Shown here one piece after another: positions 6,333-52,934 of a stretch of 64,000 nucleotides of DNA (positions within the stretch are counted from its first letter, which is position 1; each line of letters begins with the position of its first letter). The notes under the pieces were generated by a model that was not told the DNA's origin, made no database searches, and saw only the letters and a program-made list of their open reading frames with translations. Source of the DNA: a virus; the IMG/VR virus record IMGVR_UViG_3300025666_000003, positions 1 through 64,000 of that record; one strand, given 5' to 3'. The position numbers and the translations under genes are program-made.

Positions 6333-6381
6333 ATTTAAACTTTAAACTTTTAAAGTTTTTAATCCACCTTAACTTAATATT

Positions 6382-6997: not shown

Positions 6998-7035
6998 ATT
7001 TATTAGTATAATAAAAATTAAATAAACTTAAAATT

Positions 7036-15226: not shown

Positions 15227-15672
15227 TGAAAAAAGAAATAATTACTAGAAAAGAATGCAATAGATTATTTACTATAATTAATTCATCTGATGGTGAAAAT
15301 GAATACATAGCTCTTAAATTAATAAATGAATCAGATATTATGGAATCTTTAGGATTCATTATTTTACTTTATAAATTTAGCAAAATAGATAACTTAACAT
15401 GGGAATATGATTGTCCCAATGTTTGGAAAAAATTAAATGAAATTCAATTAATTAATAAAGATGAAGAAATAGTAACGCCAACATCTTCAGAAGTTTTAAA
15501 AACTATGATTGCTTATGATTGTGATATGGATGCAATTGCTGAATTTTTAGTATTACATTCTGAGACTTTAGTGAAAACTTTAAAAGTATGGGGCTATCCT
15601 ACAGAATTATTAAATATTAATATAACACTTAAAGAAAATATATATGATGACAAGAGCAGAATCACTAGCTAA
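15226..15672 (+). CDS. Hypothetical protein sharing a domain with the 18204 gene product
   Basis: 148 aa; SSDGENEYIAL...ESL motif. Confidence 0.75.
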   Translation: MKKEIITRKECNRLFTIINSSDGENEYIALKLINESDIMESLGFIILLYKFSKIDNLTWEYDCPNVWKKLNEIQLINKDEEIVTPTSSEVLKTMIAYDCDMDAIAEFLVLHSETLVKTLKVWGYPTELLNINITLKENIYDDKSRITS

Positions 15673-27366: not shown

Positions 27367-27408
27367 AAAAAGAGAGAAGATGCCTAATGGTGTCTTCTCT
27401 TTTTTTTT
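27367..27408. terminator. Terminator between the convergent gene blocks
   Basis: A-run, AGAGAAGATGCC-TAAT-GGTGTCTTCTCT, T-run; the G-U pairs favour the + strand. Confidence 0.8.
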
Positions 27409-30400
27409 ATTGAAGTTTAGAATTTTCAAATGTTTCTATACTTTTAATAGCTTTAATAGGAGAATAATTCTTTCCTTTAAGTCCAATAGTAGCACCAAAA
27501 TGATTCCATATTTTATAACGTCCTTCTTTTTGCCATTCATATGGACCAGCATCTTGTGAGTATATTGCTTTTTCATCACCACTTAGCATAAGCAATAAAT
27601 CACCAATAATTTTTGCATAATTACCTAATGTTGGACCAAATGCTATAGTAGTATTATTAGTAAATTCTAGCCAATCACCAAGACCCAGACCAGGGATTGG
27701 AATAAAAGCTTCATTCTCTGTTCTAACAGCAATAAGTTGATATAATATATGATTTCCCATATAACCAAACATACCGTATTTATCTTGTCTTTCACGCATT
27801 TTAGCAAATCTATCTTCATCACCTGAATCATATCCAAATAAGAAATAAGTTGCATAAGATAATAAAGCAATAAAAACACCTTCTGCAAATACTTTTCTTA
27901 CTGCAGTTTTTTCTTCAGGTGTCATTAAAGGATAATACTTTTCAGCATCCCATACAACTTTCTTCATTGCTTGTAAAGCACTTATCCAGTAACCTTTTGA
28001 AAGATCACCCATATCCCAATCATATGTATGTTCACCAGTTGTAGTTACATCACTCCAAAAACCTTTTCCTGTTGAACTATACTGAAATCTATTTAAAAAC
28101 ATTGGAACAGCAAATCTTTTATAAAACGTAAATAATCTGTATCCTAAATACTTATTAGCTTGTGCATCATCAACAAGATTATCCATTTGACCATTAAGCT
28201 TTTTACCAATACCCTGTATTTTAAATTTAAAATCTTGGAATTTTTTAGCACTTGATATAATGATTTCATCACCATAATCTAAATCTTCAAGAGCTATTTT
28301 ATTTTTTTTCTTAAGTTCTTCTACTGGTACAGCATATCTTTCTGATATTAGTTCCCAAGTATCACCTTCTATATATGTGTGATTTATTTTTTGATAACTC
28401 CATTCAGGATCTATACCTTCTAAAAGTGTAAGTTGTTGATTTTCATTTAATTTCCATGCATTAATATATTTAACTGATCTTGTCTCACCATTTGGCATTA
28501 CTTGAGTTACATATTTATCATGCATCATAGCTCCAAATACTTGTAAACCTGCTTCAAGATCTGTAAGTCTTCTAAAATCATACATCCAGGTAGCGTCAAA
28601 GAAATCTTTCATAAAAGTTCTTGAACTTGATTTTCCAAAATCTTTACGTGTTTTTCCAGTAATAGGATCAAAGTGTTCCATTAACTGAAGTTCTAAACTT
28701 TTTGGCCCACGTGAGTAGACACCTGTTGCAATCAATTGTGCAACTGCTTTTGCTGACCAAATTCTTCCAGATGCTAATGATTTAAGATTATAATATTTTC
28801 CACCAACTCCTTCAACAATTGATTGAAACATCATACCATATCTATTCTTCATTGCTGAAGTTAAGTCAAGTGCAATAAAAGCTCTACTTGCATTACCCAT
28901 AAGTAGATTTGTTACTTTAACAGCCATTGGATTATCTACTTGAAATTGAGTGTTACCTTGACCATAAAATACTTTATTAACAAGATAATCAACTGCACCT
29001 GCTCGTTTGTTTTCTGCAAGATTTATATTAACAACTTTATTAGCTGCTTTACTCATGTTACTAGAGATCTTATTCATATCTTTTATAACAGTATTTTTAT
29101 TCTCATTTAATGTTTTAGTAATAGATTTTGCAATCGGTTCCAATTCCATTAATGTTTCTTGCTCATTTAATGAGTATAAATAATTATATAAGGATGCTAG
29201 TACATCAGTAGATGTATCTCCTTTTTTAAGTTTATACAAACCTCTTACTGGAACTTTATCAATAGGATTACCTCGCATATCAGTAGGTTCTAACTGTTGA
29301 TTAGCATCAAAATTATGTCCTTCATTATTTTGTTCATAATCTGCTGCATCTTTTTGGACCATTGATTTTATAACAGATTTTAGATTGTCAAATTTTGTTG
29401 CAAATGATTCCTTTGTTTTTCCTGATTGTACAAGCTCAAGTGTTGAGCGCTGTCTAAATCTTGGAAAATCTAAGTATAATTTAGATCTATTTGGCTTATT
29501 GACTTGTAGCTTAAGAAAATTATCTGTAATACTTGTAAGTAACTTAAATTGAGCAACTCCTTCAGCATCATTACGTGCTTCAAGATTTTCATACTCTTTG
29601 TTTATATATTTTGCATCAACTGCTGAATTAGGATTGCCAGGTTCATACTTACGAGGAAGAGGTTGAAAACGATTATCTAAAATAGTTCCTACATAATCAT
29701 TTTTATCTGATCCTGGAGGAATAGTATAATATTTATCTTTTACTTTTGAGAAAGTATATTTCTTATTTGGCACTCCTCTAACTTCAATTGGCTTACCATC
29801 AATTGGATTAATTAAAGTTGTTTTCTTAAAAAATTTTTCTTCACTAGGTAATGTTAATGTCCAAACACTTGTTCGTACCCAAGTTGGTACTTTCTTTTTT
29901 TGTACTTGGTCCCATAACATCATTTGATAATGATTGACATCAAACCATTCTTTAAAAGTTGGATCTGCCAATGCTTGATCTATTAGTAAAGGATTATTTA
30001 TCCAGTCACCTGCATTTTCTTGATTTATTTGATCTATTTCATCACTAGAAAACTCTACAAAACGTTTAGCAAAATTAAATGAATCTACGTAATACTCTGT
30101 AGCCATCATATCTCTTAACTGAGATAATTCTTTATATAACTGACGTTGTCTTGTTACATCTTCTTTACTCATACCTAACGTATTCTGTACGTTAACTAAG
30201 TTTATATATTCTTTTTTTTCTGCTTCTGTTAAAGGATTTGTTTTTTCTTTTATTCTAGTTTCATATGATTCTAAGATATCCATGTCTGCTGCACTTAAAC
30301 CAGTTTTTGAATCAAACTCACCTTTAAGTTTATTAATATCTAATTCTATTTGATGTAGAATTCGTATTTGATTTGGACTTAACTTTTGACCATTAGGTCT

Positions 30401-33391
30401 TCTATCTGTATCTCTGGATAAAGTAACTAAAGCTCTTCGTTGTTTAAATAAATTAGCTAATTCTGCAGCTATTGGTGAGTTAGTTTTATTTCTTTCTGCT
30501 ATTTTATTTAGTTCTGTATATATTTTTCCTGTTTCCTCGTAATACTCATCACTATAACCAATTATAAAATTTCTATCAGTAAACTTTTGTACTGCTTCTT
30601 GAAAAGCTTCTGCATTATCTTCCATGGTTATACCCGCTCCACCTATTTTAGTGTTAACATAAATTTCAAAATCTCTTTGTACTTTTTTTTCATTAGTGTT
30701 AAACTCCATGAATTTAGCAGATTCTTCTTTATACTTTAATCTAACTAAAACTTTACCTAGTGTTTCAGTATCTTTAACAACACCATCTTCAGTATAATAA
30801 CTAAATAATTCATTATATTCTTTTTCAGCAGCTAAGTATTCTGTATTTACATGATCCTCAATGTCTGCCATATTAACATTTTTATAATTGTTCATGGTTC
30901 TTAAGGCAGTCTGTCTTTCAATAAAAGCATCTTGTGAATCAGTTTGACTTACTGTAAAAAGTTTTCCTGTAACTGGATGTTCTACTTGATTAGCTGTTCT
31001 CCATATTTTTCTTACTTCATAGAATTCTTTTTTAAATTCTCTATGCATGTAATCTTCTTCAAATTTCCATATAGCTTCTAAAGCGGTTCTTTCAGCATCT
31101 TTATCTCCATCTATTCTAGCTTTTTCTAAGTCATACTTAAGTTTACCTTGATCAGATCTCCATCCATTACCAAATCTGTTTAAGAATGTGTATACTTCAA
31201 ATGTGTCAAAGGATCCATCTTCTTTTTGAATTGGTACAGTATCTGTAAAAAGCAACATATCAGATAATTGCCTTGTATTATTTGGATTGTAGCCTAATTG
31301 TTTTAAGAAAGGAAGAATATCAGATGCAATATCATTAGCTTGATTATAACTACGTCCTTCAGTTTCTGATAGATTGCTTTTAATAAATCTTGCAAAGCTT
31401 CCAGTAATTGGATCATTCATACTCATATATGGAGTTATCATTGATGTGAATAAACCAATGTCACCTCTCCTACCTTCTATAAAGTCTTTAATTGTATTTC
31501 TGTTAAGTCTTTTAGAATAAAACTCTTGTGCAACATCTTTAAGATACCTAAAGCTTTTGGGAGTATTTGGCAAACCCATTCCTTTTGGTGTTAATACTGC
31601 GTTTTCATTTTCTAAAATTGCTTTTACAGCATTATCAATCTGATCTTGTGTGTACCCATCATTTTTTAAAATACTTTTAATTCTTTCTTCAGCATATTGT
31701 TCAACTGCTTCACTCATATATTCAGTATGTTCAGTAAAGAATTCAGTTGTAAAATCTAACATTAAATTATTAGTAATTTTCTGTGCATTAGAAACTATAC
31801 CTTCTATACTAATAATCTTTTGTGTAAATGGATTCTCTGTTTCAAGATCCATAGCATCTTTTATATCACTAAGAAGTAATGCTTGTCTATTTAAAAATTC
31901 TTGATAATAAATTACTTTACTTATACCAGCTTGAGTTAAATAAGATTTCTTAGTCTTCATTGTTTTAACAATATTTTCTATTTGACTAGAAAATACTTTT
32001 GTTTGTGTTAAACTATTTACAAGAGCAATTGATCTTTCTTTAAATTCTTTTTGCTGAAGCTCCATAGCTAGAGCCATTTTTTCTTCATTAGTTTTACCTA
32101 CAGTTTCATAATCTTTTAGATATTCTTTTATATTAGTAAGAATACTGCTACTACTAGCTAATTCTTCTCTTAATTTCCATGGTGTATTCCTTAACCTAGC
32201 AATCTCTGCCATATTTTCAGAATATGCTCTGTTAAGAGCTTCTTCTAATTTTAATTTATCTTTATCAAAGTTAAGTGTTTCATAAAGTTTTTGCCATTCT
32301 AATTTTACTACTTCTTTAAATTCAGCAAAATCTTTAGGTTTGAGGTTAAGATTTTCTACTATGAAATCTTCACTTACCATCATATTAGCTAATTCTTCTA
32401 AAGTAGTGTTCTCATTAAGTTTGCCTAATACAACTTTTTTTGTTGTCAACTTTCTGATTATTTGCTTAATAGCATAAAGAAGGTTTTTTATAAATTTTTT
32501 AAATCCTTCGTCAGTTTTTGTTAATTCATTTACTTTATGAGTTGCTTTATATTCTAAAGCTGTTACTAAGACTTCCTCCTTAAATCTATCTGATTGATTT
32601 TGACCATATGGATCACTTTCATCAAATTTAAGATTTGGATATCCAGCTTTTACTTGATTAATTACAGTTTCACCATTCTTAGTAAGTGTTAATTGAGTAT
32701 AAAGATTATCAAAAAGTTTTCTATCAGATATAGATATAGCATTAATAAATGGATGCGCAAACTCATGAAGTACATTGGCTACTGTCATTTGACCATCAAC
32801 AAAGTATACTACATTATTATAAAAGAATGCTGGCTGATTATTATATGGTGTAGGTGTATTAGCTAATAATGCTACTGCTTCTTCTGTACTAACCTGATCA
32901 TAGTTTATACCAAAAGCTGCTTTAAACTTATCACCTAGAGCTTTTGCTATTTCATTTGCTTTAAAATTATCAATGCTACTAGCATCATTATTCATTATAT
33001 TCCAATATTGAAATACTTTTTCATTATATAGTTCTCTATTAGTATAATCATAAGTTTTTCCTCCTAACTCCATTCGTCTCATGTCAAGATCTTGAGCTAA
33101 TACATCCATTCTTTTTATTTCAACTTCTTCTGCAAATGAAGTAGCTTCATTCAATTCTAAAATTACTTCATTATCATAGTAATCAGTAATTAAATTTTCT
33201 GAAATAATAATTTGAGCTTCTAAAAGATCTGTTGTACCTACATATCCAAAAGAAAGTACTTTTTCTCTGTAAAGTTTATTCACTGCTGCAGCTACTGATT
33301 TGGCTTTTTTTGGAGATGCACCCATACCTTCAGTTGCTAATTCCTGAATATCATTATACAAACTATCTTTAATTTTTATTCTACAAGGCAT
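27407..33391 (-). CDS. Giant virion/ejection-type protein with a zincin motif, a LysM-like insert and a C-terminal TM segment
   Basis: HEFAH (32753-32767); LysM-like segment 28256-28381; hydrophobic GVFIALLSYATYFLFG; adjacent to the RNAP gene. Confidence 0.8.
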   Translation of the reverse strand: MPCRIKIKDSLYNDIQELATEGMGASPKKAKSVAAAVNKLYREKVLSFGYVGTTDLLEAQIIISENLITDYYDNEVILELNEATSFAEEVEIKRMDVLAQDLDMRRMELGGKTYDYTNRELYNEKVFQYWNIMNNDASSIDNFKANEIAKALGDKFKAAFGINYDQVSTEEAVALLANTPTPYNNQPAFFYNNVVYFVDGQMTVANVLHEFAHPFINAISISDRKLFDNLYTQLTLTKNGETVINQVKAGYPNLKFDESDPYGQNQSDRFKEEVLVTALEYKATHKVNELTKTDEGFKKFIKNLLYAIKQIIRKLTTKKVVLGKLNENTTLEELANMMVSEDFIVENLNLKPKDFAEFKEVVKLEWQKLYETLNFDKDKLKLEEALNRAYSENMAEIARLRNTPWKLREELASSSSILTNIKEYLKDYETVGKTNEEKMALAMELQQKEFKERSIALVNSLTQTKVFSSQIENIVKTMKTKKSYLTQAGISKVIYYQEFLNRQALLLSDIKDAMDLETENPFTQKIISIEGIVSNAQKITNNLMLDFTTEFFTEHTEYMSEAVEQYAEERIKSILKNDGYTQDQIDNAVKAILENENAVLTPKGMGLPNTPKSFRYLKDVAQEFYSKRLNRNTIKDFIEGRRGDIGLFTSMITPYMSMNDPITGSFARFIKSNLSETEGRSYNQANDIASDILPFLKQLGYNPNNTRQLSDMLLFTDTVPIQKEDGSFDTFEVYTFLNRFGNGWRSDQGKLKYDLEKARIDGDKDAERTALEAIWKFEEDYMHREFKKEFYEVRKIWRTANQVEHPVTGKLFTVSQTDSQDAFIERQTALRTMNNYKNVNMADIEDHVNTEYLAAEKEYNELFSYYTEDGVVKDTETLGKVLVRLKYKEESAKFMEFNTNEKKVQRDFEIYVNTKIGGAGITMEDNAEAFQEAVQKFTDRNFIIGYSDEYYEETGKIYTELNKIAERNKTNSPIAAELANLFKQRRALVTLSRDTDRRPNGQKLSPNQIRILHQIELDINKLKGEFDSKTGLSAADMDILESYETRIKEKTNPLTEAEKKEYINLVNVQNTLGMSKEDVTRQRQLYKELSQLRDMMATEYYVDSFNFAKRFVEFSSDEIDQINQENAGDWINNPLLIDQALADPTFKEWFDVNHYQMMLWDQVQKKKVPTWVRTSVWTLTLPSEEKFFKKTTLINPIDGKPIEVRGVPNKKYTFSKVKDKYYTIPPGSDKNDYVGTILDNRFQPLPRKYEPGNPNSAVDAKYINKEYENLEARNDAEGVAQFKLLTSITDNFLKLQVNKPNRSKLYLDFPRFRQRSTLELVQSGKTKESFATKFDNLKSVIKSMVQKDAADYEQNNEGHNFDANQQLEPTDMRGNPIDKVPVRGLYKLKKGDTSTDVLASLYNYLYSLNEQETLMELEPIAKSITKTLNENKNTVIKDMNKISSNMSKAANKVVNINLAENKRAGAVDYLVNKVFYGQGNTQFQVDNPMAVKVTNLLMGNASRAFIALDLTSAMKNRYGMMFQSIVEGVGGKYYNLKSLASGRIWSAKAVAQLIATGVYSRGPKSLELQLMEHFDPITGKTRKDFGKSSSRTFMKDFFDATWMYDFRRLTDLEAGLQVFGAMMHDKYVTQVMPNGETRSVKYINAWKLNENQQLTLLEGIDPEWSYQKINHTYIEGDTWELISERYAVPVEELKKKNKIALEDLDYGDEIIISSAKKFQDFKFKIQGIGKKLNGQMDNLVDDAQANKYLGYRLFTFYKRFAVPMFLNRFQYSSTGKGFWSDVTTTGEHTYDWDMGDLSKGYWISALQAMKKVVWDAEKYYPLMTPEEKTAVRKVFAEGVFIALLSYATYFLFGYDSGDEDRFAKMRERQDKYGMFGYMGNHILYQLIAVRTENEAFIPIPGLGLGDWLEFTNNTTIAFGPTLGNYAKIIGDLLLMLSGDEKAIYSQDAGPYEWQKEGRYKIWNHFGATIGLKGKNYSPIKAIKSIETFENSKLQ

Positions 33392-33411
33392 AATAAAATT
33401 TTTGTTTTGTA

Positions 33412-33424
33412 AATATACTATTTT
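33412..33424 (-). promoter_or_regulatory. Candidate promoter motif (TAGTATATT core)
   Basis: Shares its core with 8443-8458 and 62080-62095; about 20 nt upstream of ATG 33391. Confidence 0.4.
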
Positions 33425-36400
33425 TTAATCGCATTCTGAACCTGATCTTTTTGTTGGAGGTCTACCTGCAGGTTTATTTTCTCCAAATAAGTTAAGTTGT
33501 GTTCCTGGATCAATTGGTCTAAGTTCTTCTCTTACTTCCATAAGTAATTTTGGAAACTCCGTACCCCATCTACTTTTATCTTGAGTATGTGTAAGAACTT
33601 TATTACCTGTAGCTAAAAGTATTTGTAAAGCATTTGGATTTTGTTCAAATGATGATTTTAGTAAATCTTTCATTATTCTAGAAGAGTTATCATCCCAATT
33701 AGTAATATTTAAGCTAGGAATAGTTTTTCCTATTCTTTTAGCTTCTGCTCCAGTAGCAGTAGATAATTTTCTTAAAAATTCATTTCTTTCATTAACAATA
33801 TCTTCTCTAGTTTTTCCTTTAGGGGGAATTTGAAGTGAACTAAAATAATCAGTATATAATAATTTTTCAGCTTGAAAAGCCCCTTCTACGGTTTTAAAAT
33901 TTTCAATTATACCTAAAGCAACTGGCACACTAGATGTTGGTACAAAAGGTCTATTAGCAAAATTACTTAACTCAGCATTTTCGTTAGTACCCGCATATAT
34001 ATTAACAGTCTCACTAGTTGGTTTACTCCAAGTTCCTAATAATTGACCATCTACTGTTACTTCAGAATAATTATATCCCTTAGCTTCCATATTAGCATAA
34101 AGTCTTTTTTCTCCAGTATTATAAGTGCTAGAATCTGTATAAGCTTTATTATCAGTAAGTATTGTTGCTCCAGCTTCTACAGCCTTGATAGCTTCTTTTA
34201 TAGTTCTATCTTGTTGAGTTTTTTGTTGTAACGCAGTACCTCTTTTACCTCCAATAGATACAAATATTACATCATTAGTTGAGTAGTTGCCTGTATTAGC
34301 AAATTCTCCTGCTTGTTGTCTATAAGTTTCTGTAGAACTTCCAGTAATACCTTCACCAAACCCTATATATTGAGTAGCAATACTTGCTTTAATAATTGCT
34401 TTTTTATCAGCAGATTGTATAGGAGTTACAGTAAATAAATTTTTCTTACTAAGCTCACTAGCTGGTTGAGCAAATGTTTTATTCACGGCTTGACTTTTTT
34501 CAGCATTGTGTCTAAGTGTAATACTAAATCTTTTAGACTTGTTACCTTCTGCGTCTATACCATGTTTATAATTAATTTGACCATCTTTACCCATTATTAA
34601 ACCTAGGCCAGACTTCATTGGTATTTCATACCTTTTTCCTCTACCATTAAGAATCATAGTTCTTTCGTCACCAAAACTAATAGTTACAACAGATGGATTA
34701 AGTTTACCCTTATTGTTTAATATTGGTTCATTATCAGTATGGAATCCTATTTTTTGACTACCATCCTTATATTCATTTATAAGAGCCATGTCAAAGTAAC
34801 CTTTTTCAAAACCTAATTCTGTTTCTATTTTAGAAATTAACCTTTGAAGTTCAGGACTTCCTATATTAGCAGATCTTGTAGTTCCAGAATAAGAATAAGC
34901 AGTATCAGAAAAATACATACTTCTCCTACCTTTACCAAACTTATCACTGGCCTTATGCTCAGTCTCGTAAGTATTCTTATATAATTTTTCTATAAAATTA
35001 AATATTTGTTCAGACTCTTCTTTATTAAATACTTGCTTAGTAAATACTTCAGCATCTTCAACATCTACTTTTGTTAAACCTTTTGTATTTACTAAACCAT
35101 TTGTTAATAGTGTAGCTATATCCAGATCTTCAATTACTTGATTTCCCTGTAATATTTTTTCATTTTTATTATTAAATTGTATTCCCGTAGATAAATCAAC
35201 ATTATCAATGTATACTTCTCCTGTAGCTTGATCAACAAGACTATATAGTTTACTTTTAGGAATTAACATCCATTTAGATGATTGAGGAGCTCTTTCATTT
35301 TTACCAGTATTGGTGTTATAAAATGCTTTAAATATAGTTGACGATGTAAAGAATGCTTTAGGTAAACTTCCATTACTTTTTCTTACATACTCATTGAACG
35401 ATTGAACATCTGTATCATTAATAATTTTACTTCCTCTAACAAGCTGAGTTGGTTCTATAGGTGTTGTAAAAATGCTTTCAGATTCTAATACCTTATCTTC
35501 AGGATCCTCTGATCCTTCATATCTATTGACAGCTGCTGAATCTATTAACTCATATAGTATTTGAATACCTTTATTTGATTCACTAAAGCCTGGATTTCTA
35601 TGCTTTGCCCCATATTCAAATGACCATCCTTCTAATTTACTCCAGTCTTCTATTTCTTCATCAGACATTTTTGAAAAATCAATTAGCCTTTTATCAGTCA
35701 CTTTAACTAATAGCATTTGACCTTCACCAATTTTGTCTCCTGACCAAAATTTAATTATTTGTCCAGGTTTTGCTTTAGCCCAATATGCATATGCATCATT
35801 AGTGTAATATCTAGTAGTGGCTGTTCTTTCACCTTGTAAGATAGCTTCAAATGTATTATCTGATACTACGTCATCTCTTTTATTATCACCATACTGAAAT
35901 GACATGGTACCTTCTTTATCAGCTTTATTATAACCATTGTACTCTTCTTCAGATACTACGTAATCTTTATACTTATCTTTTGAAAGTAGTCTACCGTATA
36001 TAATTTCTAGTGTATTATCATTAAGTTGATTTTGCATAAAGCTATTAGATGCATCTTGCATAATATCTGTAAAATCTTGAAATGGTAAAGCTGCATTAAA
36101 TCCATTTTTACTATATCCTATACCATGTTGGTATAACATCACAAGTGGAAACATTTTAAATAATTTACTTATATATGCATTATCTTTTTTATCAGCTTTG
36201 GCATTACCAGTAGATACTTTTTTAATATTAACATCTGCTAATTCTTTTAAATTATGATAATAACTAGATGCCAAGTCCCCTTCTACTCTATTTTTATCTG
36301 CTAATGTAAGTACTTTATCATCACCAATAGTATCAGCAGGTGTAAGTTGTTGAAGTACAGGATACTTAACTTTCAAACTTGGAAAATCTTTTATAACATC

Positions 36401-42400: not shown

Positions 42401-45400
42401 ACCATGCTTTTCATTACCAAAGTTTGTAATTACAGTTTGTAGTATTCTTATATCATCTTGTAACTTTGCTTGCTCAGCTGTAAGTATTTTAGTAGTTACA
42501 GGTTTCTTATTATATTCAAGAGCTTTGTATTTTGCTCCACCTTCAATATAGCTTGTATATTGTACAGTAGCATCTTGCATTGAATCAACTACTATTATTC
42601 CTACACGTTTCCCTTTACTGTTGGTTATAGATTCGTGACTATAGAAGTCTCCAATAATACTAATTCCATGATACATTTCACCTTTTAACCTGTCTCCTTT
42701 TTTTGAGCTTAAGTTAAGTTTGTTAAATTCATCAATTTGTGATCTAAGAAATACATACTTGTCATCTCCTGATTTTTCACTAGCAATCATAACAGCTGCT
42801 GCATTAGCTTTAAGTTCTGATAAAGTATTGATTGAATTAAAAGAAACATCTGTTATTTGCCCAAGCTCTTTTTTACGGTTTTCAAGTTGTTTTTCAAATC
42901 TTCCTTTAAGTATTTTAAATGCAATCTCTCTATTACTTATATTCTGCTCCGTTCCAAGAAACATTCTTTTCTTTTTCTTATTACTAAGAATCTCAATACT
43001 ACCTGCTTTACTACCTGGAGCATCTCCATTTTTAATTGCTAATTGATCAACCATTTCAGAAAGAGTTGAGTCAGCACTTTCAACAAATAAATCTGATTCT
43101 TCTTTATTTAAAGCATCTTCTTTTTTATTTTTTACTTGAGATATACCTCTGTCCATTTCATTAAACATGACATTGTCAATCAATGGAGTATACTTATTTA
43201 GTAGTTTTGGATTTTTACTAGAAAAATAAAGTGTATCAAACATCTCTTTAACTGATGAAATATCATAAAGATCTGTAATTACATCTTGTTTAGTTGTATT
43301 TTCAAATACACTTTTAATCCAATTTAGTATTCTTCTAAAGAGTGAATTTCTTTTTGGCCTACCTTTTTTAGCTTTTGGATTTTTAGAAAAAGTTCTGAAA
43401 TCTTCTGCAAGTTCTTCTTCAATATCATAGAAAGACATATCTTTCCATTTACCACCTTTACTTCTTATCTCTTTATATAGTGCAGTCTTTTCTGCTTTTG
43501 TCAAGAACAATTGTGAAAATGCATGCCAAGCTTCATGATACACATCTACCATGTTACCACCCGTATGCTCATTAATTCCTATCTTACCTAACTTACCACC
43601 TTCAAATAATGTAGACCCCGCACTAATAAACTCTGCATAAACATCAGAATTTACAATATTGGCCATTTGACCTAAAGAGATGAAATTTTGTAGTGGAGAT
43701 GTTTTCCACCAATCATCAGCACGTTTAATATCTTCAGATGTTATACCTAACTGATTAAGAATGGTTTTTCTTTTAAGTCCACTTTTTGTATCAAAACCAT
43801 CAAAAAGATCTCCTTCTGATGGATTAATAGTTCCTTCAGGATTAAGTTTTTCAGCGTCTGTAGTTTTAATCTTTTTTGCTTCAAGATCTTTCTTTTGTTC
43901 TTGATATAATTTTGTTCTTGGCTTTTCATTTAATGTGTAATCAGTTTCTTTAATAAAAGCTATTGCCACACCTTCACTATTATATACAGTAATTGTATCA
44001 GTAATATATTCAGTATCTGTTTCAATATCTTCGCTAACTAAAGTTACAGAATCATTAAGTTTTGGCATTACTTTTTTAACAGTTCCTTCATTTTTTTTAA
44101 ATTTTTTAATAATTGATGCAGATACAGGTTGACCTTCAGCATTAAGAATTGTAAATGAACCATATCCTTCACCTTCTGTATTGGTACCTGTGTTTCCAAT
44201 GTAGTTAACTTTAAAATCTTTTGTGTTATTTTCTTCTAGTTTAAGTTCGTTAACTAAATTATCTTTAAGTTCTCTTGTGTATGATCTAAAATTTTCAGAT
44301 TCAATTTCATTTTTTGCTTCATCAATTTCTTCAGTAATCCCTCCTGGTAATGCAAATTGCATGTAAGCATTAAATACTTCTTGAGTTTGGGATGTAGTAA
44401 AAATTTCAGCATGTGCTTTACGTAGTACATCATTAATATAGTCAGCTCTTACAAGTTTTCCATTTTGAAAATCAAAGTAACCTCCGTTAACTAAATCAGC
44501 TCTATAACGCATTCTTGTTGCACTAACTTGACCAACATTTTCAGCATTTGGATTTGTTACAGTTGTTGCAAACATTAAAGCATCTTTAATTTCTTTAAAA
44601 GCTGTTGCTGATGTTAAGTCAACAGGTTTAACATTTTTATCAATTGCACCACTTTTTTCTGCAACTATTTTAATTGAAAACTCATCAGTAGCTGGAATAT
44701 AAGACAATCTGTATCTTCTTATACTTCTTGCCATATTATTATGAATAAATTGCTCAGCAAAATTCATTTTTTCTTTTCCTGTAAGTTGTGAACTAGTTAA
44801 TGCACTTGCTATTTTTCCAGCAATTTCATCAGTCATACGTGGTCTATCAATAGTAAATTTCTTGTTGTCTATTGTAATAGTATGATATCCTTCAGGTCTT
44901 CCTTTTGATTCTACTGTTACTGATGTTAATGAACTATAAATATTTAACAACTCAGTTTCTGATAATCCAGATTCTGATAATGTATCTAAATACATAAACT
45001 TACCTGCTGCAAAACTTTGGATACCTTCATTAATTCCTGTTATTGGAACTAACTTAGCTTCTTTAGTTTTTATAAATTGCTGAGTAAAATTATAAAGATC
45101 TTTTAATTCTTTTTGTTGTTCCTTATCAATTGCATCAATAATATTTTGTTCAGTTTGTTCAGTTTCTTTAGCATACTCTGTTAAAGTCATATCAAATGAA
45201 GCTGCTAACTTATTTGCAATCTCTGCTGGAGTAGTCACTTGTGATTCTTGATTATAAAGACCTTTTGCATTATATCTAGCTCCTTCTTTTCTTACTGTTC
45301 TTGTAAACTGATATACATAACTACCATCTTCAGTAATTTTTCCATCAGTATTAAACTTAACTGGATTACCATTTGCATCAACAATAATCATAGCAACTCT

Positions 45401-46165: not shown

Positions 46166-46166
46166 A

Positions 46167-49100
46167 TTAAGGACATTCTAAATCGTTAAATAAATCTTCT
46201 TCTATATCATCAATACTAGATGAGTCTGCTACGTCATTGATAGGATCTTTAGCTATTCCACCAGTTTCTGCAAATAATTTTACTGAGTCTGATGTTTGTT
46301 TAATTAATTGCTTGTCACTTTCATTAAGTGGTTTAGATGTTGATATAGCTTTTGTTTTAAATATTGCCACTGTTGTAAAATATTCATTAGGGTTATTAAA
46401 TGTTTTGCTTTCTCCTGTACTTAATAAAGTTACTGTTACTGAATAAGAAGCACTGGACGCTTGCCCATCATCATCATATTCTGGAACTCCTTGAATTTTT
46501 GTAACTACAACTGTATCATACTGTTCTGCAAATAATTCTTCACCTTCAAAGATATCATTTTTAACTATAAGTTGAGTCCCTTCTTCAAGATTATCTAAAG
46601 CAATTTCAATATTAGTTCCTTCATCTAATTCTGCTGTTCTTGCTGTAAGTAAACCAGACATTTTGTTTACTGTCTCTGCGTCTATCTTACCCTCTTGAAA
46701 AGCAATAAGTAACTCACCTCTCAATTGATTAACATCATTTGTTTTAGCAATCATTACCTTAACTTCAGCAAGAGTTATTTTTTTAACTGCAGGTTCTGTA
46801 GATTTTATTTCTTCTTTTGGTTTAGTCTCTTTTTTCTGTTTTCTAGGATTAATTTCTGTTGATCCTTCGGTAGGCTCATCATCACTAAGTTCATCACTAC
46901 TTGTTTCTCCTTTATTGTTTTCATAATTTCCTGTATATAATAATATATTAATAATTTCTAAGTTTTCTAAAGCTTTTCCTATAAGAAGCTTTGGTTGTTT
47001 AAAGAATAATTTACTCATATCAACAATAGCATCTGTAACGTATAAATCTAGAATAAGTTTCTCTTGATCTGTAAGTGGAGCAAATCTGCCAGGTGAATGT
47101 AACTTATTAAGTGCATCTGCAATTTCAGGACTCATGTTTTTATTTAAAACATTATTTATAACACTGAGTGTAATGTAATCATCTTCTGCTAATACTTTTT
47201 CTATATCTTCTTGTTCTATTAACTCATCTTTTGTATTTACTTCAGATATTTCTTGATAATTAATTTTATTTCTCTCTACTTCTACAGCTACAATAAGTGC
47301 TTGATTTTTAATACGTTGTTTAGAATTATTTGCAGGAATAAGTGAAATAATATTACCATCTTTATCTGTAACAATATCATAACTTTGATTATTAACAATA
47401 ACTTTCTTTTCACTTTTTAACTGAACTGTATACTTAGAAGCAATATCTTCTCTTTCCTCAGGAAGATTTAAACCAGCTTCTTCAATTGTAGTTTCTCCTG
47501 TAACATCTGTTAAATATAATGTCTTAGTTGGAGAATATAATTCATACCTAGCAGATTTCTTTTTTCTATTAACTTTCTTTAATCTATATGCTTTTCCTTC
47601 AAAGTAAACATTTTGACCAATCATTTCATCTAATGTAGGATACTCTACTTCCCCAATAATTTCAACATTAGTTTCAGGAACTTGATCACTATCTTGAGCA
47701 ACAGTTTCAGTTAATGCATCAGCTACTTCTGCAGGGAGTTCTTCTTTTTCGTCAATAAGAACTTCTTCTTGTATAGGAATTTTTGTATTAACTTTATCTA
47801 TAAGATCTTGACTTGGGTTTAATTCAAACCATGCTGGTGTATCTCTATTTGTAAGGTTTTCATTTATACTACTTGATTCAATTTTACCAGTGTTAATGTT
47901 AACTTTAGTAAGTAAAGGCATTAGATTTATAGTTGCCTCTACGCCTATCATATTAAATAGTAAATTTTTGTATGCTGTTTGTTGTAATTCGTAAGCTTCA
48001 GTCTTAGAATTTTGTGGATAAACACCACCAGTTTTAGTAAAATGTGACCATTTTGTATCCGCACCTGTTTTAAGATCTACAATATGAAATTGACCAAATT
48101 TATCTACAAGTAGTAAATCTATCTCCCCTGCTATTCTTACATTTTTATCATAAAGTATAAGTCCTTCTGCTGCTATGTAATACGTTCCTTCTTTTATATC
48201 TTTTCTTAATTTAACTAAAGGACCTTTGTTAAAAGTATTATCAAATGCTTCTTGAGTTATAAATGCCCCGTGTATTTTTGAATCCCATATAAATGGTTTA
48301 TCAACGTCCATGAAATAATCTCTAACTAATCCATCTATGTATGTACCTGCATTTCTTTCTTCTCTGTAAGTAGCTTCATTTACATCTTTAGTAAGTGTTG
48401 CTTCAGCATCTTCTTTTGCTAAAGGAATTGTTTTTTCTAAGTCAAGTATTTGTTTACGTATTTCTGCAATACTTTCAGGAGTGCTGCTCTCTAATTTTTC
48501 TTCTTCAAGTATTTCATTTTCTTGACTTTCAATTTGCTGATAAATACGATCAATTTGAATTTGATCAATCTTTTTAGCTTTAAGTCTAGCTTCAATAACT
48601 TCAGCTCTTTCAGCCATTACATCAAATGATATACGTGGAAGTTCATTTGTTCTTGAATAAAGCAAATTCATAAAGTCAACTGCTGTTTCACCAGAACCCA
48701 TTGTAAGTTCATAAGCATTTAATACTTTGTCAAGTGCACCATATGCATATGGTTTTTCTTTTAAATCTTCTAGGCTTCTAGTTACTCTAGAGAATGGCTC
48801 ATGATTAATTAAATATGCTTCTTTTGTCTTTCTTATATTTTCATTAAGCTTTTTTATTCTTTCAACTTTTGCAATAGCATCTTGCATTTCTTGAGTTCTA
48901 GCTATACTTTGTTTGTATGTTAAGTATCTAGATAATTCTCCTAATACTTCAGTATATTCTGCAAACATTAATCTATCTTCATCAGTTTGCTTTTCTTTAC
49001 TTTCAATATCTGTAATAACTTTTTGATAACGTTTAATATAATTTTTAATAGTTGCTTCACTCATTTCTGAAGACTCAAGGATTTTACCATCAATAGCAAT

Positions 49101-52100
49101 CTGTGGTGCAACTGGAGGGCCTTCTTTACTTACATTAAAAATTTCTTCCTGTGTATCATTATATTTTTGAATTATATCAGTTGCTATATCACTTTCCATA
49201 AAAGCTTCTAAGTTATCTTCTGAACTACCTTCATATATTCCAGGTGTAATAACCATTTCATTTTCTAAAGCATCTAAAAGTTCTTGTTTAAGTGTAGCAG
49301 GAAGATTATTAACAGGTGTATACATTGTAACAGGAATGTATTCATCTGATTCATTATCCTTATTAAAGTTTTCAATTAATTCAGCTTCTTTTTTAGCATA
49401 TTCTTTTTCTATTTCTGCTACAGCTGCATCTTCCGGTTTAAGTACTATTTTAAATCTATTAGCTGATTCAAATTTTTCAGTAATATTTTCTATATTTAAT
49501 ACTTTACCTTCAGCATTATCTTGTTTTAACTCTTCACCATCTCTATAAAACACTTCTGTAACAGTGTCAGTTCCTTTTTTATATGTAACTGTAACATACT
49601 CTTTATCTTGAAGTTCTTTAAGAACAACTTTAATGCTAAGTTTTTTAAGTTTAGGTTTTTTAATTGCTCCTAAATCTATTTTAGTTTCAGTTTTAGGAAG
49701 TTCGTCAATCTCAGCCTGCATCTTTTTAGCAAGTTCATCACGTTTTTCTTGAAGAGCTTTTCTTAATGGATGTTTACTTATTGTTTCAACAAGATCTAGT
49801 GCTGCTTTTTGATGAAATAAATTAGCATACTTAGCATAATCAGGACTATTTTCTGTAATTACTTTTTTTCTAGATTCATCATAAAATTCAAGTGGAAACA
49901 AACCTTCTTTTTTAAATCGCACCCAGTCTTCAGGACTTAAGAATATATTATCGTTGGCAAGCTTATTAAGTAATGAATTATCTTCAATGTTATCCATTGC
50001 ATCTTTAACCATCTTATCATAATAATCTTTACGATTTTCATAAAGCTCACTCATCCATTCATAATTTCTTGAAACATGGTCTCTAAAATCAGCTGGACTA
50101 CTTAATAAATTAGCATAAAATGCCATTGATCGTGATTGATGACTTAACCTATGATAATCAACTAATTTATCAAATGCTTCATCTATGTTCTTATTAAAGA
50201 TATGATCATCTGATAATTCTGCTATTGTCTTTAAATAATTTTTAAAGTGTGTTTCAAAATCATTTATTGCTTTGTTATCATTCTCTTCAGTTCTGTATGA
50301 TTCAAATCCTTCCCTTAGTGCTGCATCAAATTCTTCATCTGTTGCTTTTTTACCCATATTTTTTTCAAGATCTACACGGGCTTTCTCTCTTAATTCTGGA
50401 GTTAAAGTTTTTATAAAAAAGTATTCATTAAAAGTTTTTAGACCTTCTTGAAAATTAGTATATGCATTAAGTTTCTTTTCAAGTTTGCCTAATCTTTTTT
50501 TAGATTTTTCATCTGTTAATAGTTTTAATCCTTCAATTTCTGTAGAAAGAATATCTTTTTCATTAGAAAGTCTTTCAAGATCAAACACTGAATTAAGATC
50601 TGTAGACGAAACTTTACTAAAATCAAGTTCTGTAGAAAAGTCTTGCATAATACTTTCCATTCTTGAAACAGTATCAGTAAAACTTTCATTAAAAAAAAGC
50701 GCATTTCTTTGAGCTAATTTCCAAGCACTGTCAAATATACTTGCTTTATTATATGTTTCTGTACCTTTTTCATAGTCATCTAAATTAACAGGACTAGGGA
50801 ATTTTTCTTTAATATTTTTATGTGTACGTTCTATTGAACGTGCTCTAGATATTATACTATCAATTCTATCTTGATACTTCTTACCTGTTCCTTTTTCAAA
50901 ACCAAATGCTTCTTCAAATTCTTCAGGAGTTAAACCTTTCATTGATTCTAAATGCTCAACAAAAAAGTCCATTGAGTTTGTATCTAATGCAAGTGCAACT
51001 TTTTGAATCAACCCTTCTTCTCTGGCATCCATTGTCTCCATCTTTGGAGAATCTTTTGAAATATCATTTACTGAATTTTGAAGTGCTTGATTAAATAATT
51101 TTGATTCAAAGAAATCTTTTGGATCAGAATAAAATTCATTAAGTGCAGCAGCAACATCTTTACCTGTTTTAGCTTTTGCATTTTTGTATTCTGCATATAC
51201 ATCTTTATTAAAAATTTTATTATAACCTAGCTGATAGTTATTAACAACAGCATTCATTGGTTTAGCAAACATACCCATCATAAAACCACTTGCAAAAGTT
51301 TCAAATCCTTGAGCTGATAGTTGAGCATCTATTGCATTAGTAAGTAAACCTTTTGAAAAGTCACTTGTTATTACACTTTCATCAACGTACATTTGCTTAT
51401 AGTAATTTTTACTAAAGTCAGCAATTACATCTTGAGCATTTTCTTGTAAACCTTCACTTACGTTTGCTTTAAAATATCCCATAAAACCTTTTACACTTGT
51501 ACCAAGAGGTTGACTACTAAAATTCTTTAATGCATTCTTAAAACTTTTATCTGTATATTCAAATGCACCTTTAGCAGCAGTTTTTTTAGCTCCTTCTTTA
51601 GTTGCACCTTTTACAGTTTTCTTAAATACTACCTTACCTGTTTCAAGATCAATAACATCACTTATTTTTGAACTTAATGCTTTTTTAAGGCCACGGTTTG
51701 ATCCAAGTACATTAGGCAGAAGTATTTTATTACTAGCAAATATTATTGCTGTATTCCAAAGTAATGCATTTGTACCTGCAGCTTTGGCTTGTTTTGTCAT
51801 TTCTTCTTGAACTTCATTAGTTGGAGCTTCATGAAATTCATTATAATGTTCATCATATAATTCTTGATATAATTCATTCTGAACAAAACCACCTTCAAGT
51901 CTAGCTTCAGATAAAGCCATGTTAGCATTTCTCACATCTCTATAAAATCCACCAGCTGTTTTTGATAGCTTAGCTAAATTATTAATATTATCACCTACAG
52001 ACTCTGCTTTTTTTATATCTTGAATTGCACCACGAACATTTTCAAAAGGATTTATTACCCTACCTACAGATGTTCCCCAAAATGTTCTTGCATTAGAAAC

Positions 52101-52934
52101 ATTATTTAAACCTTTCATTGTTTGATTTACTGCTTTTGTACCATCATACATTAAATCAGCAGTAGCTCCAATCTTGCGTATTTTTCTTAAGTTATTAGCT
52201 GTTGCTGCAAAGAAACTTGCCCCTCCTGTAGCAGGCGTTAATAATGTTCCTGCTATTTCTTCTAATATTGCAGATGTAAATATACCAGCAGTGTATGCAA
52301 AAGACATAGCTGTGTTACTCATAAATGCACCAAAACCATCTTTACTTGATTGACCAATAGCTGCTGCTTCAGCATATTCTTTTGCTGATTCAAGATTTAC
52401 ACTAAAGTCCCCTTTTAAAGCTTTAAATAAACTTTCATAAGTATCCGTGAATCCTTTTGTAAATAAAGGAGCCATTGAATTACTTATCATGACAGATGTA
52501 TTTTCCCACCAACTTGTGTTTGCATTATAGAGAGCTTCATTATCTCTCATTGGTGAAAATCCTAACTTTTCAAACTTTTCTGGACCATACGCAGCATATC
52601 TTTTATAAAAGTTATTACCAGAAGCTCCCGCATTATAAGAAAAAATGCGTGAATGTTGTTCAGGTGGAGCTTCGCCAAGTGCTAGAAGTCTACCTTCTAT
52701 TCCATTAAATTTTTCTTGATATGATGTAGGAACACCTTTATTTACTTTATTTATGTCAGCATTTTTTTTTCTTAATGTTTTAAAGTCTGCAGTAAGTGGT
52801 TCTTGATAAAATTCAGGAAACGAAGGTGTATCTCCTTCAAAAGGTTTTAAACTTTCAGGATTAATATTTTGTGGATTTATTTTTCCAAATTCTGGACCTA
52901 AGGATTCAGTTGCGTCAAATGTGTTATCTGCCAT
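46167..52934 (-). CDS. Giant virion/ejection-type protein with a PD-(D/E)XK nuclease domain
   Basis: N-terminal Gly/Ala-rich hydrophobic helices; IAGEIDLLLVD...IVDLKTG...YELQQTAY at about 47960-48180. Confidence 0.8.
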   Translation of the reverse strand: MADNTFDATESLGPEFGKINPQNINPESLKPFEGDTPSFPEFYQEPLTADFKTLRKKNADINKVNKGVPTSYQEKFNGIEGRLLALGEAPPEQHSRIFSYNAGASGNNFYKRYAAYGPEKFEKLGFSPMRDNEALYNANTSWWENTSVMISNSMAPLFTKGFTDTYESLFKALKGDFSVNLESAKEYAEAAAIGQSSKDGFGAFMSNTAMSFAYTAGIFTSAILEEIAGTLLTPATGGASFFAATANNLRKIRKIGATADLMYDGTKAVNQTMKGLNNVSNARTFWGTSVGRVINPFENVRGAIQDIKKAESVGDNINNLAKLSKTAGGFYRDVRNANMALSEARLEGGFVQNELYQELYDEHYNEFHEAPTNEVQEEMTKQAKAAGTNALLWNTAIIFASNKILLPNVLGSNRGLKKALSSKISDVIDLETGKVVFKKTVKGATKEGAKKTAAKGAFEYTDKSFKNALKNFSSQPLGTSVKGFMGYFKANVSEGLQENAQDVIADFSKNYYKQMYVDESVITSDFSKGLLTNAIDAQLSAQGFETFASGFMMGMFAKPMNAVVNNYQLGYNKIFNKDVYAEYKNAKAKTGKDVAAALNEFYSDPKDFFESKLFNQALQNSVNDISKDSPKMETMDAREEGLIQKVALALDTNSMDFFVEHLESMKGLTPEEFEEAFGFEKGTGKKYQDRIDSIISRARSIERTHKNIKEKFPSPVNLDDYEKGTETYNKASIFDSAWKLAQRNALFFNESFTDTVSRMESIMQDFSTELDFSKVSSTDLNSVFDLERLSNEKDILSTEIEGLKLLTDEKSKKRLGKLEKKLNAYTNFQEGLKTFNEYFFIKTLTPELREKARVDLEKNMGKKATDEEFDAALREGFESYRTEENDNKAINDFETHFKNYLKTIAELSDDHIFNKNIDEAFDKLVDYHRLSHQSRSMAFYANLLSSPADFRDHVSRNYEWMSELYENRKDYYDKMVKDAMDNIEDNSLLNKLANDNIFLSPEDWVRFKKEGLFPLEFYDESRKKVITENSPDYAKYANLFHQKAALDLVETISKHPLRKALQEKRDELAKKMQAEIDELPKTETKIDLGAIKKPKLKKLSIKVVLKELQDKEYVTVTYKKGTDTVTEVFYRDGEELKQDNAEGKVLNIENITEKFESANRFKIVLKPEDAAVAEIEKEYAKKEAELIENFNKDNESDEYIPVTMYTPVNNLPATLKQELLDALENEMVITPGIYEGSSEDNLEAFMESDIATDIIQKYNDTQEEIFNVSKEGPPVAPQIAIDGKILESSEMSEATIKNYIKRYQKVITDIESKEKQTDEDRLMFAEYTEVLGELSRYLTYKQSIARTQEMQDAIAKVERIKKLNENIRKTKEAYLINHEPFSRVTRSLEDLKEKPYAYGALDKVLNAYELTMGSGETAVDFMNLLYSRTNELPRISFDVMAERAEVIEARLKAKKIDQIQIDRIYQQIESQENEILEEEKLESSTPESIAEIRKQILDLEKTIPLAKEDAEATLTKDVNEATYREERNAGTYIDGLVRDYFMDVDKPFIWDSKIHGAFITQEAFDNTFNKGPLVKLRKDIKEGTYYIAAEGLILYDKNVRIAGEIDLLLVDKFGQFHIVDLKTGADTKWSHFTKTGGVYPQNSKTEAYELQQTAYKNLLFNMIGVEATINLMPLLTKVNINTGKIESSSINENLTNRDTPAWFELNPSQDLIDKVNTKIPIQEEVLIDEKEELPAEVADALTETVAQDSDQVPETNVEIIGEVEYPTLDEMIGQNVYFEGKAYRLKKVNRKKKSARYELYSPTKTLYLTDVTGETTIEEAGLNLPEEREDIASKYTVQLKSEKKVIVNNQSYDIVTDKDGNIISLIPANNSKQRIKNQALIVAVEVERNKINYQEISEVNTKDELIEQEDIEKVLAEDDYITLSVINNVLNKNMSPEIADALNKLHSPGRFAPLTDQEKLILDLYVTDAIVDMSKLFFKQPKLLIGKALENLEIINILLYTGNYENNKGETSSDELSDDEPTEGSTEINPRKQKKETKPKEEIKSTEPAVKKITLAEVKVMIAKTNDVNQLRGELLIAFQEGKIDAETVNKMSGLLTARTAELDEGTNIEIALDNLEEGTQLIVKNDIFEGEELFAEQYDTVVVTKIQGVPEYDDDGQASSASYSVTVTLLSTGESKTFNNPNEYFTTVAIFKTKAISTSKPLNESDKQLIKQTSDSVKLFAETGGIAKDPINDVADSSSIDDIEEDLFNDLECP

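What the first reader, a model, noticed from the sequence alone, without database searches (positions are those of the whole stretch)
27407..52934. Three giant virion proteins have only four cysteines, placed for a head-to-tail disulfide chain
Seen (manual scan of the translations): the 2255-aa protein has one Cys, penultimate (ECP-stop, 46173-46175). The 4246-aa RNAP has two, Cys5 (46151-46153) and the penultimate residue (ECD-stop, 33431-33433). The 1994-aa protein has one, Cys3 (33383-33385). That is 4 Cys in 8495 residues, only at the termini that meet in gene order; the two outer termini have none, and both C-termini read E-C-x-stop. Established: ejected proteins such as the N4 virion RNAP are Cys-free. 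Inference: the proteins are linked tail-to-head by intermolecular disulfides (or shared metal) into one chain that threads through the tail in a fixed order and is released by reduction in the cytoplasm, a redox-cleavable ejection train. I know of no description of this arrangement.
Basis: partly seen in the sequence, partly recalled or inferred. Interest (0 to 1): 0.9.

Follow-up and report, generated by a model that had tools for sequence, protein, structure and literature searches.

The report
Terminal cysteines chain crAss cargo proteins
Three giant proteins of this crAss-like phage, its RNA polymerase in the middle, have no cysteine except one at each end that faces the next protein. Hundreds of relatives keep, lose and regain these cysteines just as expected if the proteins are tied end to end, probably by disulfide bonds like one seen by cryo-EM in a cyanophage.

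Summary
A (2255 aa) has one Cys at -2, B (4246 aa, virion RNAP homologue) has Cys5 and Cys-2, and C (1994 aa) has Cys3. That is 4 Cys where about 92 are expected.

The pattern is a family rule:
- 116 of 120 A homologues, about 80 of 89 B homologues and 49 of 51 C homologues keep it. So do crAss001, phi14:2, p-crAssphage and crAss002.
- In 74 related loci, 131 gene junctions carry both cysteines and 91 carry neither. Only 6 are discordant.
- Extra or split links carry a Cys at both ends.
- Verified A-B fusions have no Cys at the fused joint.
- A recent split by a GIY-YIG homing endonuclease created a new Cys pair.
- The ends are modular, cognate "cap" domains, and small adapter proteins convert one cap type into another.

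Best reading: the caps dock and are locked by a head-to-tail disulfide, giving one linear cargo chain. The bond itself is untested in crassviruses. Cyanopodophage A4 shows exactly such a bond by cryo-EM (gp27 Cys1715 to gp26 Cys5, PMC12002296), so the principle is not wholly new. Threading through the tail and release by reduction remain inference.

This scan has already noted the same pattern in about 100 other crAss-like genomes.

The parts
46167..52934 (-). Protein A, 2255 aa: first link of the chain (crAss001 gp47-like). Its only Cys is at residue 2254. It has a PD-(D/E)XK nuclease motif at residues 1582-1631 (nt 48042-48191).
   Evidence: blastp to gp47, 5.7e-9; 116 of 120 homologues have exactly one Cys, at the C-terminus.
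46170..46769 (-). C-terminal cap of A (last 200 aa). A terminal helix (residues 2241-2251) is followed by a coil holding Cys2254 (codon 46173-46175).
   Evidence: the Cys is the only invariant column in 42 diverse sequences. AlphaFold2 pLDDT 82.6, helix 186-196 of the fragment, then coil.
33425..46165 (-). Protein B, 4246 aa: middle link and virion RNAP homologue (crAss001 gp50-like). It has a zincin HExxH at residues 877-881 (nt 43523-43537) and RNAP DFDVD at 2518-2522 (nt 38600-38614). Further on it has an AlkB-like oxygenase at 3710-3885 (nt 34511-35038) and NADAR at 4061-4204 (nt 33554-33985). Its only cysteines are Cys5 and Cys4245.
   Evidence: about 80 of 89 homologues have a Cys at position 3-5 and one in the last 1-8 residues, and most have no other.
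45788..46165 (-). N-terminal cap of B (residues 1-126, a helical domain). Cys5 (codon 46151-46153) lies in a flexible tail before helix 9-28.
   Evidence: C5 is the only invariant column in 47 sequences. AlphaFold2 pLDDT 84.7, residues 1-8 without secondary structure.
33431..33433 (-). Cys4245 of B, the C-terminal cap cysteine (…S-E-C-D-stop) that faces protein C.
27407..33391 (-). Protein C, 1994 aa: last link (crAss001 gp49-like). Its only Cys is Cys3 (codon 33383-33385). It has a LysM domain at residues 1675-1712 (nt 28256-28369).
   Evidence: 49 of 51 homologues have a Cys at position 3-6 and none has one at the C-terminus.
52924..56400 (-). Protein D, 1158 aa, Cys-free, directly upstream of A. 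It is not part of the chain and marks its start.
   Evidence: the D-like proteins that precede the A-like protein in the related loci have no terminal Cys, and nearly all have no Cys at all.

Best explanation
A, B and C are the RNA-polymerase cargo block of a crAss-like phage. These are proteins that relatives pack into the capsid and inject.

Each protein ends in a modular cap domain. The single cysteine in each cap then forms an intermolecular disulfide. A, B and C are thereby joined head to tail into one nearly linear chain of 8495 residues.

Everything else in the proteins is kept free of cysteine, so that no wrong bond can form.

The likely uses of the chain are inferred, not shown:
- co-packaging of the whole set at fixed stoichiometry;
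- keeping the order and continuity of the partly unfolded proteins as they pass the tail;
- release of the separate enzymes when the bonds are reduced in the host cytoplasm.
For: What the sequence shows:
1. The caps are almost universal in about 260 homologues at 25-60% identity. The Cys is the only invariant column in both cap alignments.
2. The rule acts on the proteins, not on the DNA at the gene junction. In crAss001 the gp47 gene lies on the opposite strand from gp50-gp49, yet gp47 has its only Cys at -3, gp50 has Cys5 and Cys-9, and gp49 has only Cys5. The same holds in phi14:2, p-crAssphage and crAss002.
3. Among 228 unique adjacent gene pairs in 74 loci, 131 have both cysteines, 91 have neither and 6 are discordant. 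Fisher p is 8e-56, not corrected for phylogeny.
4. Extra links of 169-655 aa carry exactly one Cys at each end.
5. Split A genes (L042, L068) have a new pair at the break.
6. Verified A-B fusions (L084, L085) have no N-terminal Cys and none at the joint.
7. In L045 a cassette carrying a GIY-YIG homing endonuclease split a gene. The flanks are 94-99% identical to the unsplit P0247. The split form has Cys-2 and Cys3 at the new ends, and the unsplit form has no Cys there.
8. The caps come in cognate types. Adjusted mutual information between cap clusters is 0.63, reached by 0 of 2000 shuffles.
9. Both cysteines are predicted to lie on exposed, flexible ends.

From the literature:
- In cyanophage A4 the sole Cys of gp27 (1715 of 1717) is disulfide-bonded to the sole Cys of the next gene product, gp26 (Cys5), in the cryo-EM map (PMC12002296).
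- Disulfides do form in crAss001 virions (PMC10172136).
Against: - No bond has been observed in any crassvirus. Neither the crAss001 structural paper nor the preprint of the phi14:2 RNAP paper mentions these cysteines.
- Virions assemble in a reducing cytoplasm, and gut crassviruses live without oxygen. No thiol oxidase, thioredoxin or glutaredoxin gene was found in this 100-kb record, so when and how oxidation would happen is open.
- A4 shares no detectable sequence similarity with A, B or C.
- There are a few exceptions. p-crAssphage gp47 has a C-terminal Cys with no partner in gp46, and the L081 RNAP has Cys3 without an upstream partner.
- Intestiviridae keep 6-7 internal Cys.
- The statistics are not corrected for shared ancestry.
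Confidence: 0.65

Rival explanations
1. Static lock only. The cysteines do pair head to tail, but the bond merely stabilises a folded cargo or pre-ejectosome complex inside the capsid, as in A4. The proteins separate before or during exit and do not travel as a linked train.
For: In A4 the bond sits in a folded pentameric ring above the portal. Cognate docking domains of 120-170 aa would suffice for assembly.
Against: A lock could sit anywhere on an interface. Here the Cys is always within about 6 residues of the N-terminus and about 10 (once 19) of the C-terminus, even at new splits. Fusions replace it by a peptide bond. This points to a need for linear continuity.
Confidence: 0.2
2. Other thiol chemistry. 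The two cysteines share a metal ion or form another covalent link, rather than a disulfide.
For: Assembly takes place in a reducing cytoplasm. An acidic residue often precedes the C-terminal Cys (E-C, D-C).
Against: One thiol per side and no conserved His or second Cys nearby. The only solved analogue shows a disulfide. No N-terminal Cys at position 2 is ever seen, which argues against ligation chemistry. No intein or Hint domain was found.
Confidence: 0.07
3. Third-party anchoring. Each terminal Cys bonds to another virion component (portal, capsid or tail protein) rather than to its neighbour in the gene order.
For: crAss001 tail and portal-vertex proteins use many disulfides. A few caps lack a visible partner.
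Against: The first link never has an N-terminal Cys and the last link never has a C-terminal Cys. Pairs appear and vanish together (131 both against 6 discordant). Cap types covary between neighbours.
Confidence: 0.05
4. The pattern is a by-product of gene-junction sequence (translational coupling signals) or of chance in Cys-poor proteins.
For: A and B are 1 nt apart.
Against: crAss001 gp47 is encoded on the opposite strand from its partner. Spacers vary from overlaps to 130 nt or more. The Cys is the only invariant residue in alignments with about 20% mean column identity.
Confidence: 0.01

Closest known systems
Cyanopodophage A4 (Anabaena phage A-4L) ejection proteins gp27 and gp26 (PNAS 2025, PMC12002296)
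   Same: These are consecutive ejection-protein genes. The upstream protein has its only Cys 3 residues from the C-terminus, after a long terminal helix. The downstream protein has its only Cys at residue 5. A disulfide between them is seen by cryo-EM.
   Different: A4 has one bond between two proteins of an ordinary podophage pre-ejectosome. It has no RNAP, and no chain of 3-5 links, adapters or cap types has been described. No sequence similarity to A, B or C was detectable.
RNA-polymerase cargo block of cultured Crassvirales: crAss001 gp47/gp50/gp49 (PMC10172136) and phi14:2 g067/g066/g065 (g066 is the RNAP gp66)
   Same: The proteins are homologous, are found in virions according to those papers, and follow the same cap rule.
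   Different: The cysteines are not mentioned in the crAss001 paper or in the phi14:2 RNAP preprint that I could read. Here B also carries the zincin domain and an AlkB-NADAR tail.
Phage N4 virion RNAP gp50 with ejection proteins gp51 and gp52
   Same: A giant injected RNAP and its partners, entirely free of internal cysteine.
   Different: N4 has no terminal cysteines at all, so no chain of this kind. Its RNAP is of the T7 type (my own knowledge), not the two-barrel type.
Phage genes split by free-standing homing endonucleases, whose halves reassemble (T4-like phages; my own knowledge, not checked here)
   Same: In L045 and L059 a GIY-YIG endonuclease gene sits at a break between chain genes.
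   Different: Here the two new protein ends each carry a cysteine cap, which suggests covalent rejoining at the protein level.

Membership tests
Crassvirales RNAP cargo block (gp47/gp50/gp49-like) | Two-barrel RNAP catalytic motif DFDxD with I or V at the fourth position | tested here: met
   GSDFDVDK at B residue 2518, the same motif context as crAss001 gp50 residue 1483. D2518, D2520 and D2522 are invariant in 26 homologues.
Crassvirales RNAP cargo block (gp47/gp50/gp49-like) | Sequence homology of the three proteins to gp47, gp50 and gp49 | tested here: met
   blastp: A to gp47 5.7e-9, B to gp50 5.1e-14, C to gp49 6.5e-5. The matches are weak but collinear.
Crassvirales RNAP cargo block (gp47/gp50/gp49-like) | The proteins are present in the virion and injected | not testable with these tools
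   Known only for crAss001 and phi14:2, by mass spectrometry.
Disulfide-linked consecutive ejection proteins (A4 gp27-gp26 type) | Sole Cys at the extreme C-terminus of the upstream protein and at about residue 5 of the next gene product | tested here: met
   for the window; for A4 (Cys1715 of 1717, and Cys5).
Disulfide-linked consecutive ejection proteins (A4 gp27-gp26 type) | The C-terminal Cys follows a terminal helix that can dock on the partner | tested here: inconclusive
   The AlphaFold2 model of A's last 200 aa has a terminal helix and then a coil with the Cys.
Disulfide-linked consecutive ejection proteins (A4 gp27-gp26 type) | An actual S-S bond in the virion | not testable with these tools
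   Needs non-reducing gels, cross-link mass spectrometry or cryo-EM.
Disulfide-linked consecutive ejection proteins (A4 gp27-gp26 type) | Homology to gp26 or gp27 | tested here: inconclusive
   No significant blastp or HMM score. Fold searches with B's N-terminal cap gave only generic helical matches with Z of 5.6 or less.
Split intein / protein trans-splicing | Hint or intein domains flanking the junction | tested here: not met
   Pfam finds no intein or Hint domain in A, B or C. The caps are unrelated helical domains.

The most novel reading that the evidence does not exclude
Crassviruses use a modular plug-and-socket system. Cognate C-terminal and N-terminal cap domains, each with one cysteine, set the order in which megadalton cargo is strung into one redox-cleavable thread. 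Adapter proteins, and mobile cassettes that bring their own caps, let new enzymes be spliced into the injected chain at the protein level.
Probability: 0.4. Interest if true: 0.85.

Novelty: new variant of a known kind. Interest (0 to 1): 0.8.

Why it matters
Crassviruses are the most abundant phages of the human gut. They inject about a megadalton of protein, including their own RNA polymerase, and how this cargo is packed, ordered and passed through the tail is unknown.

A conserved end-to-end tether gives a concrete hypothesis that can be tested directly in two cultured phages, crAss001 and phi14:2. It explains why split and fused gene forms are interchangeable. It also explains the extreme lack of cysteine in these proteins.

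The cognate caps and adapters suggest a general way by which phages add counter-defence enzymes to their injected cargo. They could also serve as a natural toolkit for ordered, reducible protein concatenation.

Tried and rejected
- Megablast and tblastn of B against the phage collection found nothing.
- PHROGs has no family for A, C, D, E, F or G.
- L062/L083, a 4665-aa RNAP protein, looks like an A-B fusion. It has an A-like start, a D-like gene directly upstream, and a single C-terminal Cys. Homology of its extension to A could not be shown: hhalign probability was 0.7% and hmmsearch found nothing. I rely on L084 and L085 instead.
- N-cap HMMs never hit the interior of a protein with their Cys-bearing start, so no fused form that retains both caps was found.
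- Foldseek and VIA-align searches with B's N-terminal cap gave only generic helical bundles.
- Sequence searches of the PDB found only AlkB and YbiA hits for B, and nothing for A.
- A4 caps against crass cap HMMs scored about 0-9 bits.
- No Erv1/Alr, thioredoxin or glutaredoxin gene was found in the 100-kb record. The Erv1 control matched in none of the control genomes either, so that absence is weak.
- Five literature searches found no paper on cysteines of crassvirus cargo.
- The supplement held for the crAss001 paper has no reduced-versus-non-reduced values.
- L081 and L082 were not close relatives of P0081.
Full report
**The observation**

The window is the first 64 kb of a 100,107-bp IMG/VR viral record with 29% G+C. 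On the minus strand lie three huge consecutive ORFs:
- A, 46167-52934, 2255 aa;
- B, 33425-46165, 4246 aa;
- C, 27407-33391, 1994 aa.

A has Cys2254. B has Cys5 and Cys4245. C has Cys3. Both C-termini read E-C-x-stop, and the two outer termini have no Cys.

The 21 other ORFs of the window hold 1.08% Cys. About 92 would therefore be expected in 8495 residues, and 4 are seen. The Poisson probability is about 4e-34, and the chance of that placement is about 1e-10.

**What the proteins are**

- B carries GSDFDVDK at residue 2518, the same motif context as in crAss001 gp50, and matches gp50 by blastp.
- A matches crAss001 gp47 and C matches gp49.
- B also has an invariant zincin HExxH at residue 877. 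Its variable C-terminal tail holds an AlkB-like 2OG-Fe(II) oxygenase and a NADAR domain.
- A has a PD-(D/E)XK nuclease motif and C has a LysM domain.

In crAss001, gp47, gp49 and gp50 are "RNA polymerase-associated" cargo found in virions and assigned to the capsid cargo zone (PMC10172136). In phi14:2 the RNAP and its two neighbours are virion proteins. [quoted passage not shown] A, B and C are therefore the RNAP cargo block of a divergent crAss-like phage.

**Conservation**

I collected homologues from a 5.8-billion-protein set and counted cysteines.
- Of 120 A homologues, 116 have exactly one Cys, within the last 1-6 residues and mostly as the very last residue.
- Of 51 C homologues, 49 have a Cys at position 3-6 and none has one near the C-terminus.
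- Of 89 B homologues, about 80 have a Cys at position 3-5 and one in the last 1-8 residues. Most have no other. This holds down to about 25-30% identity.

In alignments of 47 B N-termini (300 aa) and 42 A C-termini (200 aa), mean column identity is about 20%. In each alignment the Cys is the only invariant column.

Cultured crassviruses obey the rule:
- crAss001: gp47 has one Cys at -3; gp50 has Cys5, one internal Cys and Cys-9; gp49 has only Cys5.
- phi14:2: the protein upstream of the RNAP has one Cys, its last residue. The crystallised RNAP gp66 has only Cys3 and Cys-2. The downstream protein has only Cys3.
- p-crAssphage: gp45 has Cys-2 and gp44 has Cys3.
- crAss002: gp32 has its only Cys at -2. 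In gp33 the annotated start is probably 32 codons too far upstream of M-S-C.

In crAss001 the gp47 gene lies on the opposite strand from gp50-gp49. The rule therefore acts on the proteins, not on the DNA at a gene junction.

**Natural experiments**

I fetched 74 related IMG/VR loci and mapped ORFs and cysteines. Among 228 unique adjacent same-strand gene pairs, 131 have both a C-terminal Cys upstream and an N-terminal Cys downstream. A further 91 have neither and 6 are discordant (Fisher p 8e-56, uncorrected for ancestry). Most of the discordant cases are explained. Several involve small inserted genes. In L075 the single Cys of the A-like protein sits at -19, just outside my 10-residue window.

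Chains vary from 2 to 5 links, and every intercalated link is capped at both ends.
- Proteins of 169-396 aa between B and C have exactly two Cys, for example at 3 and 307, 3 and 289, 4 and 170, or 3 and 209.
- L014 has a 655-aa link with Cys3 and Cys-1.
- In L042 and L068 the A protein is split and the break carries a new Cys pair.

Conversely, L084 and L085 encode single proteins of 4335 and 4340 aa. Each matches A near its start and B (zincin and RNAP) further on. They have no N-terminal Cys and none at the fused joint. They keep the C-terminal Cys, and the next protein starts M-A-T-C.

The clearest case is L045.
- Its 396-aa link is 94% identical to residues 1-374 of the unsplit 2460-aa protein P0247.
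- Residues 197-2232 of its last protein are 99% identical to residues 425-2460 of P0247.
- Between the two lies a cassette with a GIY-YIG homing endonuclease and a P-loop kinase module.
- The split form has Cys-2 and Cys3 at the two new ends. The unsplit form has no Cys in that region.

**Caps are cognate modules**

The 289-307-aa links of L024, L029 and L038 are made of two pieces.
- The first roughly 170 residues are homologous to the N-terminus of long C proteins.
- The last roughly 130 residues are homologous to the C-terminus of long B proteins.

They sit after a B that ends …YIESLKCKL, which is the type that normally precedes those long C proteins. They sit before a protein that starts M-L-S-C-P-x-K-x-S-x-E-W, which is the type that normally follows …L-L-K-x-I-C ends. 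They are therefore adapters from one cap type to another. L066 and L069 show the same logic with other types.

Clusters of C-caps and N-caps are strongly associated. Adjusted mutual information is 0.63, or 0.47 without the large A-to-B class, and 0 of 2000 shuffles reach either value. This covariation argues for direct, specific contact between the end of one protein and the start of the next.

**Structure**

AlphaFold2 models put Cys5 of B in a flexible tail before a helical domain (pLDDT 84.7). They put Cys2254 of A in a coil just after a terminal helix (pLDDT 82.6). Both are exposed, as expected for an intermolecular bond. Fold searches with the B cap model found no informative match.

**Comparison with what is known**

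A look-up in this scan's earlier notes showed the same pattern recorded in about 100 other crAss-like genomes. It also pointed to a 2025 paper on cyanopodophage A4. [quoted passage not shown] From the A-4L genome, gp27 (1717 aa) and gp26 (1114 aa) are consecutive genes, and each has exactly one Cys.

This is a solved two-link example of the same design. I found no sequence similarity between it and the crass proteins.

N4, by contrast, has a Cys-free vRNAP and ejection proteins with no caps. Disulfides are seen in the crAss001 tail and portal vertex. Neither the crAss001 paper nor the phi14:2 preprint mentions cysteines in the cargo, and five literature searches found no such description.

**Verdict**

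- Shown here: adjoining termini carry cysteines that appear, disappear and covary together.
- Inferred from A4: the link is a disulfide.
- Inferred only: the chain threads the tail in order and is released by reduction.

Open problems are when oxidation happens, given that no redox gene was found in this record, which end of the chain exits first, and a few unpartnered caps.

I rate it a new variant of a known kind. The one-bond precedent exists. The multi-link, modular chain with adapters across Crassvirales is undescribed in the papers I could search.

Noticed in passing
window 33554-35038 (-), B residues 3710-4204: The RNAP protein ends in an AlkB-like 2OG-Fe(II) oxygenase and a NADAR domain, with a weak ASCH match upstream. 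Homologues replace this tail with RNase H, a Pif1-like helicase, ART-PolyVal, an AAA_33 kinase and others. It looks like a swappable set of injected counter-defence enzymes, all kept free of cysteine.
   Followed up: partly
L024 21997-22920; L029 21442-22365; L038 22644-23513; L066 16230-16748; L069 15541-16050; L068 19090-19719: Small proteins (169-307 aa) lie between the RNAP gene and the last cargo gene. At least the L024, L029 and L038 links consist of little more than an N-cap and a C-cap of different types, so they act as adapters between otherwise non-matching neighbours.
   Followed up: yes
L045 20713-29249; L059 11711-13050: GIY-YIG homing endonuclease genes sit exactly at breaks in the cargo chain. 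In L045 the cassette split a gene that is whole in a 94-99% identical relative, and the new protein ends carry cysteines.
   Followed up: yes
L087 (crAss002, NC_055828) 10996-11100: The annotated start of gp33 is probably 32 codons too far upstream. An internal M-S-C-T-P-S-N matches the conserved N-terminal cap seen in p-crAssphage gp44.
   Followed up: partly
L086 (p-crAssphage, BK010471) 2072-7209 and 27462-27740: gp47 (857 aa) has its only Cys at -2, but the next protein gp46 has none, so this cap has no visible partner. The same genome encodes a putative thioredoxin (gp39).
   Followed up: no
window 58714-58788 (-), protein E residues 366-390: The 1140-aa protein two genes upstream of A has its only four cysteines as CxC…CxxC, which looks like a small metal-binding knuckle. 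The next protein, D, has no Cys.
   Followed up: no
window 52877-52934 (-), A N-terminus; window 27410-27445 (-), C C-terminus: The two free ends of the chain are themselves conserved. A homologues share M-A-x-x-N-x-x-F-x-P-L-D-P-L-G-P-E-Y-G, and C homologues share a motif like …E-x-F-E-N-L. These may be docking or packaging signals for the whole chain.
   Followed up: no
window 15644-16963 (+): A large HNH endonuclease (phrog_1314, 4.5e-63) lies inside the replication gene module.
   Followed up: no
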